A stretch of 56,145 bases of DNA, the filler included, from Bipalium vagum (lineage: Eukaryota), in assembly GCA_037834085.1 (NCBI GenBank). It is 3 parts of 3 records of this genome, joined end to end, with 100 filler letters (N's around TTAATTAATTAA, not from the genome) between each part and the next. Parts side by side here need not be neighbours in the genome. Positions count along the whole stretch, not along the records: positions 1 to 19,258 come from JBBMKC010006110.1; 2 more parts are not named here. The stretch is one strand, 5' to 3'. Within the stretch, counting starts at the first letter, position 1, and every line of letters begins with the position of its first letter. The position numbers and the translations under genes were made by a program. Under the pieces are notes generated by a model. It was not told the DNA's origin, made no database searches, and saw nothing but the letters and a program-made list of their open reading frames with translations. Below, in pieces: positions 9,346-9,525 of the stretch.

Positions 9346-9525
9346 GAAACCTGTTTTATTCATAAAACAAAGTTTCAACTCGATTTAATAATAAATTCTA
9401 AATTTCATATTATATTCTTTTTAACTTGTCTTATAATTAAGACAAAGTTTTATTTTATTTATATAATAAATCTCTTTACAAATCCTTGTAGTCAAACTTG
9501 CTTTGTAGACAAAGCAAAGTTTGAT
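9346..9525. repeat. Array of three 31-nt palindromic (hairpin) repeats spaced 75 and 72 nt apart
   Basis: gaaacctgttttattcataaaacaaagtttc (9346), ttaacttgtcttataattaagacaaagtttt (9421), caaacttgctttgtagacaaagcaaagtttg (9493). Shared AACYTG...CAAAGTTT arms; the inner stems differ but each is self-complementary. Confidence 0.75.

What the first reader, a model, noticed from the sequence alone, without database searches (positions are those of the whole stretch)
9346..9525. Regularly interspaced array of 31-nt hairpins with compensatory stem changes
Seen: three equal-length units start at 9346, 9421 and 9493, separated by unrelated AT-rich spacers of 44 and 41 nt. All keep the outer arms AACYTG/CAAAGTTT, including the same 1-nt asymmetry. 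The inner stems differ yet stay paired (TGTTTTAT/ATAAAACA, TGTCTTA/TAAGACA, TGCTTTGT/ACAAAGCA). Inference: paired changes suggest selection on structure or palindrome self-correction, not simple tandem duplication. Candidates are mobile hairpin elements of the organellar type, cruciform protein-binding sites, or an RNA processing array. The layout is superficially CRISPR-like, but the repeats are not identical and no cas genes are present.
Basis: partly seen in the sequence, partly recalled or inferred. Interest (0 to 1): 0.72.

Follow-up and report, generated by a model that had tools for sequence, protein, structure and literature searches.

The report
Bulged RNA hairpins in flatworm retrotransposon
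The three hairpins are real and sit in the leftover end-repeat (LTR) of a flatworm retrotransposon family whose copies keep the hairpin shape while changing its letters, so they are likely protein-docking signals on the element's RNA, possibly read by a predicted inactive exonuclease-like protein that the same element encodes.

Summary
In detail: none of 400 shuffles gave three such hairpins. They lie in a 5'-truncated LTR remnant (8885-9929) of a flatworm Ty3/Gypsy clade (TG...CA ends, 4-bp target duplications, tRNA-Trp-type primer site, integrase), not in an organellar or CRISPR-like array. The arm motif occurs 770 times in the genome (control 116). In 65 distinct interiors 92% of stem cells pair (shuffled 67%), with several pair types per position. 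The one-base bulge stays on the 3' strand, and G-U outnumbers A-C 20 to 8, which points to the sense RNA. Most LTR copies carry 1-4 hairpins at variable spacing, so the even spacing here is not general. The last hairpin sits at a fixed distance before a predicted poly(A) signal. The element also encodes a membrane protein and an ISG20-like exonuclease fold that lacks most catalytic residues. Best reading: multivalent protein-docking sites on the element's RNA, with an element-coded partner. Binding, transcription start and function are untested. The Drosophila Egalitarian code was tested and not met.

The parts
8885..9929 (+). 5'-truncated LTR remnant of a Ty3/Gypsy-type element; ends in ...CA, no primer site behind it
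9105..9112 (+). TATA-like word, a weak candidate promoter; no fixed position across copies
9346..9376 (+). bulged hairpin 1 (one extra mismatch in this copy)
9421..9451 (+). bulged hairpin 2
9493..9523 (+). bulged hairpin 3, at the fixed position before the conserved block
9540..9566 (+). conserved LTR block; starts with a poly(A)-type hexamer in 72 of 86 loci, non-canonical in this copy
9567..9612 (+). U-rich tract, predicted downstream element of the poly(A) site
   Evidence: T 0.60 against 0.33 upstream
9611..9690 (+). two further conserved hairpins in the predicted U5
9874..9929 (+). terminal inverted repeat and LTR 3' end
48374..48486 (-). second pair of the same hairpins in a fragment of another subfamily (third stretch of the pack)

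Best explanation
The three units are copies of a 3'-bulged hairpin kept in the LTRs of a flatworm Ty3/Gypsy clade, and they likely act as protein-docking sites on the element's RNA, most likely for an element-coded protein, the lead candidate being its predicted inactive ISG20-like exonuclease domain. Shown: the LTR setting, the conserved shape (about 8 bp upper stem, 4-5 nt loop, one 3' bulge, 3-5 bp lower stem), the covariation, 1-4 copies in most LTRs examined and the fixed place of the last copy about 17 nt before the hexamer. Inferred: the hairpins form in the sense RNA (about 85%) and lie upstream of the poly(A) site, in U3 or R, so that they are present at the RNA's 3' end. A protein would read the fixed arm and bulge while the variable upper stem only has to pair. 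Several sites would give cooperative loading that marks the RNA for 3'-end formation, export or packaging. Partner: the dead exonuclease domain about 30%, Gag about 25%.
For: Pairing of 372 of 400 cells in 80 exact-arm units; 298 of 325 in 65 distinct interiors against a shuffle mean of 218 (max 243 of 5000) and 29-52% for slid partners. Each of the five inner positions shows at least two Watson-Crick types. G-U 20 against A-C 8, and 18 against 0 at positions 2-3. 3'-bulged 121 against 5'-bulged 8 in 86 loci. A sister family changes an arm U-A pair to G-C and keeps the bulge. The last hairpin lies 41-48 nt before the block in 54 of 73 loci. The extra ORF matches ISG20L2 by profile (E 1.6e-9) and by fold (E 2.5e-7); its relative P0126 has RNase_T over the cut-off; catalytic positions are mostly not kept in the own-genome copies. 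Precedent: inactive ISG20 still binds the HBV epsilon stem-loop (PMC5388505, abstract).
Against: No binding, expression or start-site data. At stem positions 1, 4 and 5, A-C exceeds G-U 8 to 3, and related copies share states, so p = 0.036 overstates the strand bias. Many of the 86 loci were fetched by the arm pattern, so 121 against 8 is partly built in; among the 15 loci fetched by LTR ends or internal sequence, 11 have a hit. Within the window's own family the hairpins are not clearly better conserved than other LTR parts (0.66, 0.83, 0.80 against spacers 0.70, 0.56 and U5 0.82-0.86). AATAAA is common all along these AT-rich LTRs, so the poly(A) site is inferred. Lying on the same element does not show that protein and hairpin interact.
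Confidence: 0.55

Rival explanations
1. The hairpins recruit a host Egalitarian-like adaptor and dynein to carry the element's RNA inside the cell, as the I-factor signal does in Drosophila.
For: Egl reads AU-rich stem loops with 3' bulges and needs two per RNA (PMC13186709). The host has 15 WH_Egal matches on 7 contigs, four of them with three domains.
Against: The Drosophila code is not met: no conserved pairing beyond about 3-5 bp below the bulge, and no constant pair of U-A pairs 8 bp apart. Planarian Egal-1 lacks a clear exonuclease-like domain and its biochemistry is unknown (PMC12579938).
Confidence: 0.15
2. The hairpins bind a host 3'-processing or transcription factor and tune use of the LTR poly(A) site or promoter, in the manner of TAR or a poly(A) hairpin.
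For: Fixed distance of the last hairpin from the hexamer, U-rich tract behind it; long R regions keep stem loops (PMC3601003).
Against: The upstream hairpins lie at free distances up to about 500 nt; no host factor was identified.
Confidence: 0.18
3. The units act as DNA hairpins or cruciforms, or are quasi-palindromes kept by self-correction without function.
For: Such processes also give paired changes, and G-T pairs form in single-stranded DNA during reverse transcription.
Against: Correction should erase the bulge, yet it stays on the 3' side. The arm sequence is fixed while the interior drifts, and G-U exceeds A-C. A double-stranded site would not need a paired interior.
Confidence: 0.08
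4. Independent mobile hairpins of organellar type, or a CRISPR-like or small-RNA array.
For: Similar units with unlike spacers.
Against: The units travel inside nuclear LTRs with target duplications; no Rfam match; spacers are shared between copies rather than newly acquired; stems of 11-12 bp are too short for Dicer (established knowledge).
Confidence: 0.02

Closest known systems
Ty3/Gypsy (Metaviridae) LTRs and retroviral R-region stem loops (HIV TAR and poly(A) hairpin; recalled)
   Same: TG...CA ends, conserved AATAAA with U-rich tract, structured RNA near the poly(A) site (PMC3601003, passages)
   Different: 1-4 dispersed copies of one small 3'-bulged hairpin with fixed arms and a free interior; no known activator
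Bdelloid rotifer Juno/Vesta LTR elements with a DEDDy ORF3 (PMC5408684, passages)
   Same: a captured 3'-5' exonuclease ORF behind pol
   Different: here the fold is ISG20/REX4-like (DEDDh), the catalytic positions are mostly lost, and it follows a pol-fused membrane ORF; that paper has no occurrence of 'stem-loop' or 'hairpin' in its main text
Egl-BicD localisation signals: TLS, ILS, GLS (PMC13186709, section 8 and passages)
   Same: AU-rich stem loops, 3' bulge, more than one per RNA, used by a retrotransposon
   Different: lower helix shorter and the spaced U-A pairs not constant
ISG20 binding to HBV epsilon (PMC5388505, abstract)
   Same: protein fold; stem loop in the terminal repeat of a reverse-transcribing element; the inactive form still binds
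   Different: ISG20 is a host restriction factor; here the domain is element-coded and binding is untested
Planarian Burro/GYPSM1 giant Gypsy elements (PMC6431247, passages)
   Same: flatworm Gypsy elements with accessory domains
   Different: Burro has env between gag and pol in a 4,900-aa ORF; here the membrane ORF follows integrase and an exonuclease-like ORF runs into the 3' LTR

Membership tests
Ty3/Gypsy LTR retrotransposon | TG...CA termini with target-site duplication | tested here: met
   13 full copies of 732-1927 nt: 6 perfect 4-bp duplications, 6 with 3 of 4, 1 without; the window copy keeps only the right end
Ty3/Gypsy LTR retrotransposon | tRNA primer site behind the 5' LTR | tested here: met
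   17 of 30 loci share an 18-nt site two bases after the LTR end; its complement lies in two tRNA-Trp-like fragments that ARAGORN did not call
Ty3/Gypsy LTR retrotransposon | purine tract before the 3' LTR | tested here: met
   short tract ...GAGAAA or ...AAGAAA in L078, L079, L091, L092, L132, L134
Ty3/Gypsy LTR retrotransposon | pol with order PR-RT-RH-IN | tested here: inconclusive
   integrase (rve E 5e-9) and a weak protease hit in own-genome copies; RT was not seen in them; the full order is seen in relatives at about 60% integrase identity
Errantivirus (env-bearing Gypsy) | F-type or gB-type fusion glycoprotein | tested here: inconclusive
   signal-like and transmembrane stretches behind integrase, about 330 aa, no Pfam env hit; not folded
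DEDDh exonuclease (ISG20/REX4), extra ORF | fold and sequence profile | tested here: met
DEDDh exonuclease (ISG20/REX4), extra ORF | catalytic D-E-D-H-D set | tested here: not met
   only the first acidic position is kept, in 4 of the 7 own-genome rows that cover it; the other positions are mostly not kept
Egl-BicD localisation signal | 3'-strand bulge | tested here: met
Egl-BicD localisation signal | two or more stem loops per RNA | tested here: met
   55 of 77 loci have 2-4
Egl-BicD localisation signal | upper and lower helices of at least 6 bp | tested here: not met
   pairing below the arm is at chance level except 45 against 34 expected at -2
Egl-BicD localisation signal | U-A pairs separated by 8 bp | tested here: not met
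   in the one register that fits, the upper site is T-A in 24 of 80 and the lower site is U-A in 1 of 73, a pyrimidine pair in 47
CRISPR array | near-identical repeats, newly acquired spacers, cas genes | tested here: not met
   repeats 69-74% alike; spacers align between copies; animal genome; cas genes were not searched
Known Rfam families | match at gathering score | tested here: not met
   three chance hits far below their cut-offs
TAR/Rev-type trans-regulatory pair | element-coded protein binds the hairpin and changes RNA fate | not testable with these tools
   no protein-RNA prediction or RNA data available

The most novel reading that the evidence does not exclude
An invertebrate Gypsy clade has built its own Tat/TAR- or Rev/RRE-like control pair from a captured, catalytically dead ISG20/REX4 exonuclease and an array of bulged LTR hairpins that this protein reads.
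Probability: 0.25. Interest if true: 0.8.

Novelty: new variant of a known kind. Interest (0 to 1): 0.52.

Why it matters
RNA signals and their binding proteins are well known for vertebrate retroviruses but barely for invertebrate LTR retrotransposons. This clade offers a small, well-defined motif with hundreds of natural variants and a candidate partner on the same element, so a simple binding assay can test it. A positive result would show that complex-retrovirus-style regulation arose again from a host nuclease fold. It would also suggest a role for exonuclease ORFs captured by retroelements, an open point in PMC5408684.

Tried and rejected
Rfam: nothing. Helitron/Helentron, Ginger, SINE and organellar readings were dropped after the termini, target duplications, primer site and integrase were seen. 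A first arm pattern with a 15-19 nt interior missed the main class (56 hits against 33). The word-index search for longer relatives of the extra ORF found none. The first fold had pLDDT 40 and was not used. Pfam does not hit the own-genome extra ORF. No RNA holder listed. Laying the one DNA run gave no usable copy number. No fixed TATA position was found. Viral contigs held no relative of P0122. The metagenome relative L330 holds only the ends of its LTRs, so the hairpin zone could not be tested there. No covariance model was built and R-scape is not available; shuffled and slid controls were used. No count of exonuclease-ORF copies in the genome was made. The 2018 planarian genome paper was not held; its supplements and Repbase may already describe this family.

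Full report
Observation. The three 31-nt units, their arms, stems and spacers are as described. They fold with z = -3.3, -5.1 and -5.1. No shuffle of 400 gave three such hairpins. Rfam has no match.

Setting. The region is a dispersed repeat of the window's own genome (441 Mb, 272,664 contigs): 48 matches from 40 scored of 1,564 candidates, 74-85% identical over the main matches. Homology covers 8885-9929 and ends sharply at ...CA. Fuller copies start with TG. Of 13 copies with both ends, 6 have a perfect 4-bp target duplication, 6 match at 3 of 4, and 1 does not match. Seventeen of 30 loci picked by the LTR end plus TGG share an 18-nt primer site. Its complement lies in two tRNA-Trp-like fragments, which ARAGORN did not call. 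Six LTR starts follow a short purine tract and a shared internal region. That region holds integrase, then a membrane ORF, then a further ORF that runs into the 3' LTR. RT was not seen in the own-genome pieces; relatives show the Gypsy order. The window copy has no primer site behind it and nothing homologous before 8882, so it is a truncated remnant. COI codon use fits mitochondrial table 9 in two of three types, which agrees with two earlier scan notes that call the host a flatworm (they concern other elements). Table 9 is also used by echinoderms (recalled).

The hairpin family. The arm pattern with a 12-14 nt interior occurs 770 times against 116 for the reversed control. I fetched 97 of the 100 listed matches and analysed the 80 distinct units with a 14-nt interior found in 88 loci; units with 12-13 nt interiors were left out. 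The first five inner pairs are formed in 372 of 400 cells. Among 65 distinct interiors 298 of 325 cells pair, against a mean of 218 (max 243) in 5,000 shuffles of the 3' halves and 29-52% for slid partners. Each position shows two or three Watson-Crick types. G-U outnumbers A-C 20 to 8 (18 to 0 at positions 2-3, but 3 to 8 at positions 1, 4 and 5); related copies share states, so this is moderate evidence. With the hairpins masked, 93 of 104 regions still link by their flanks, in two main families. A descriptor without sequence finds 121 3'-bulged and 8 5'-bulged hairpins upstream of a conserved block in 86 loci. This is partly built in, as many loci came from the arm pattern; of 15 loci fetched otherwise, 11 have a hit. 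The sister family changes an arm U-A pair to G-C and keeps the bulge. In 77 loci, 4, 18, 28, 24 and 3 have 0, 1, 2, 3 and 4 hairpins upstream, and 1 has one downstream. Gaps run from 46 to 400 nt, and the last hairpin lies 41-48 nt before the block in 54 of 73. The block starts with AATAAA, AGTAAA or ATTAAA in 58, 10 and 4 of 86 loci and is followed by a T-rich tract (0.60 against 0.33). Against: AATAAA is frequent throughout the LTR and no TATA position is fixed, and within the window's family the hairpins are not clearly better conserved than other parts.

The extra ORF. The ESM Atlas gave RNase_T and arenavirus nucleoprotein features at 0.91-0.92. A profile of 8 open segments found 9 relatives, one with RNase_T over the cut-off. 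The 17-row profile hits ISG20L2 at E 1.6e-9, and the model (pLDDT 72) matches ISG20L2 and ISG20 best. The catalytic positions are mostly not kept in own-genome copies, so the domain is predicted inactive. A metagenome contig shows the same primer site and gene order, but lacks the hairpin zone.

Mechanism. Fixed arms, a one-sided bulge, a freely changing but paired interior and several copies per RNA are what a protein-binding RNA site looks like (inference). I commit to docking sites for an element-coded protein (0.55), with the dead exonuclease domain as lead partner (about 0.3) and Gag next (about 0.25). Inactive ISG20 still binds a stem loop in the terminal repeat of HBV RNA (PMC5388505, abstract and outline seen). 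The host has Egalitarian-like genes, and Egl reads 3'-bulged stem loops in pairs (PMC13186709, section 8 whole and passages). However, the helix-length and spaced U-A rules are not met, and planarian Egal-1 lacks a clear exonuclease-like domain (PMC12579938, passages). Host 3'-processing control and DNA-level readings are the other rivals.

Comparison with print. Structured R regions and LTR anatomy: PMC3601003 (passages). Exonuclease ORFs in rotifer LTR elements are DEDDy-type with intact residues: PMC5408684 (passages). Burro elements differ in layout: PMC6431247 (passages). PMC13524379 has no occurrence of 'stem', 'RNA structure' or 'exonuclease' in its main text; PMC11410931 treats planarian Gypsy elements only in bulk in the passages seen. 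Ten searches (listings only unless named) showed no description of this hairpin array or of an ISG20-like ORF in a flatworm Gypsy element. The 2018 planarian genome paper, its supplements and Repbase could not be seen and may describe the family. The scan held no note on this sequence.

Verdict. A real, selected structural motif inside an ordinary kind of host, an LTR remnant. It is a new variant of a known kind; interest 0.52. The bold reading, an element-coded protein-hairpin control pair, has probability 0.25 and would deserve 0.8.

Noticed in passing
window 48374-48486 (-): A second pair of the same hairpins, 84 nt apart, in a fragment of another subfamily of the same LTR clade.
   Followed up: yes
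window 9611-9690: Two conserved hairpins in predicted U5 (motifs found in 75 of 86 loci each). By eye, L330:40-120 has two stem loops at a like place with different stems and similar loops; the predicted fold supports only the first.
   Followed up: partly
L135, L140, P0002-P0010, L330: pol continues in frame into a type-I membrane protein of no Pfam family; relatives show the same fusion.
   Followed up: partly
L330 (metagenome contig): A distant relative has the same 18-nt primer site and the same order: gag-pol-membrane ORF, then the exonuclease-like ORF. P0126 keeps the catalytic set, so the clade may hold both active and dead forms; its genomic context is unknown.
   Followed up: partly
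L298-L309: Egalitarian-like matches on 7 host contigs, more than the three genes reported for S. mediterranea; some may come from a second flatworm in the assembly.
   Followed up: partly
L292-L294: Three different COI types in the assembly: two read best with mitochondrial table 9 (flatworm-like), one differs; the assembly may include a second animal.
   Followed up: partly
window 825-1151 (+): Exon of a ubiquitin-conjugating enzyme, closest to UBE2G1.
   Followed up: partly
window 12212-17405: Broken DNA-transposon pieces; the labels hAT-like, mariner-like and Chapaev-like are recalled, and Pfam gave no hit.
   Followed up: no
L189, L234: Two short contigs with the same hairpin whose flanks do not link to the main LTR cluster.
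   Followed up: no
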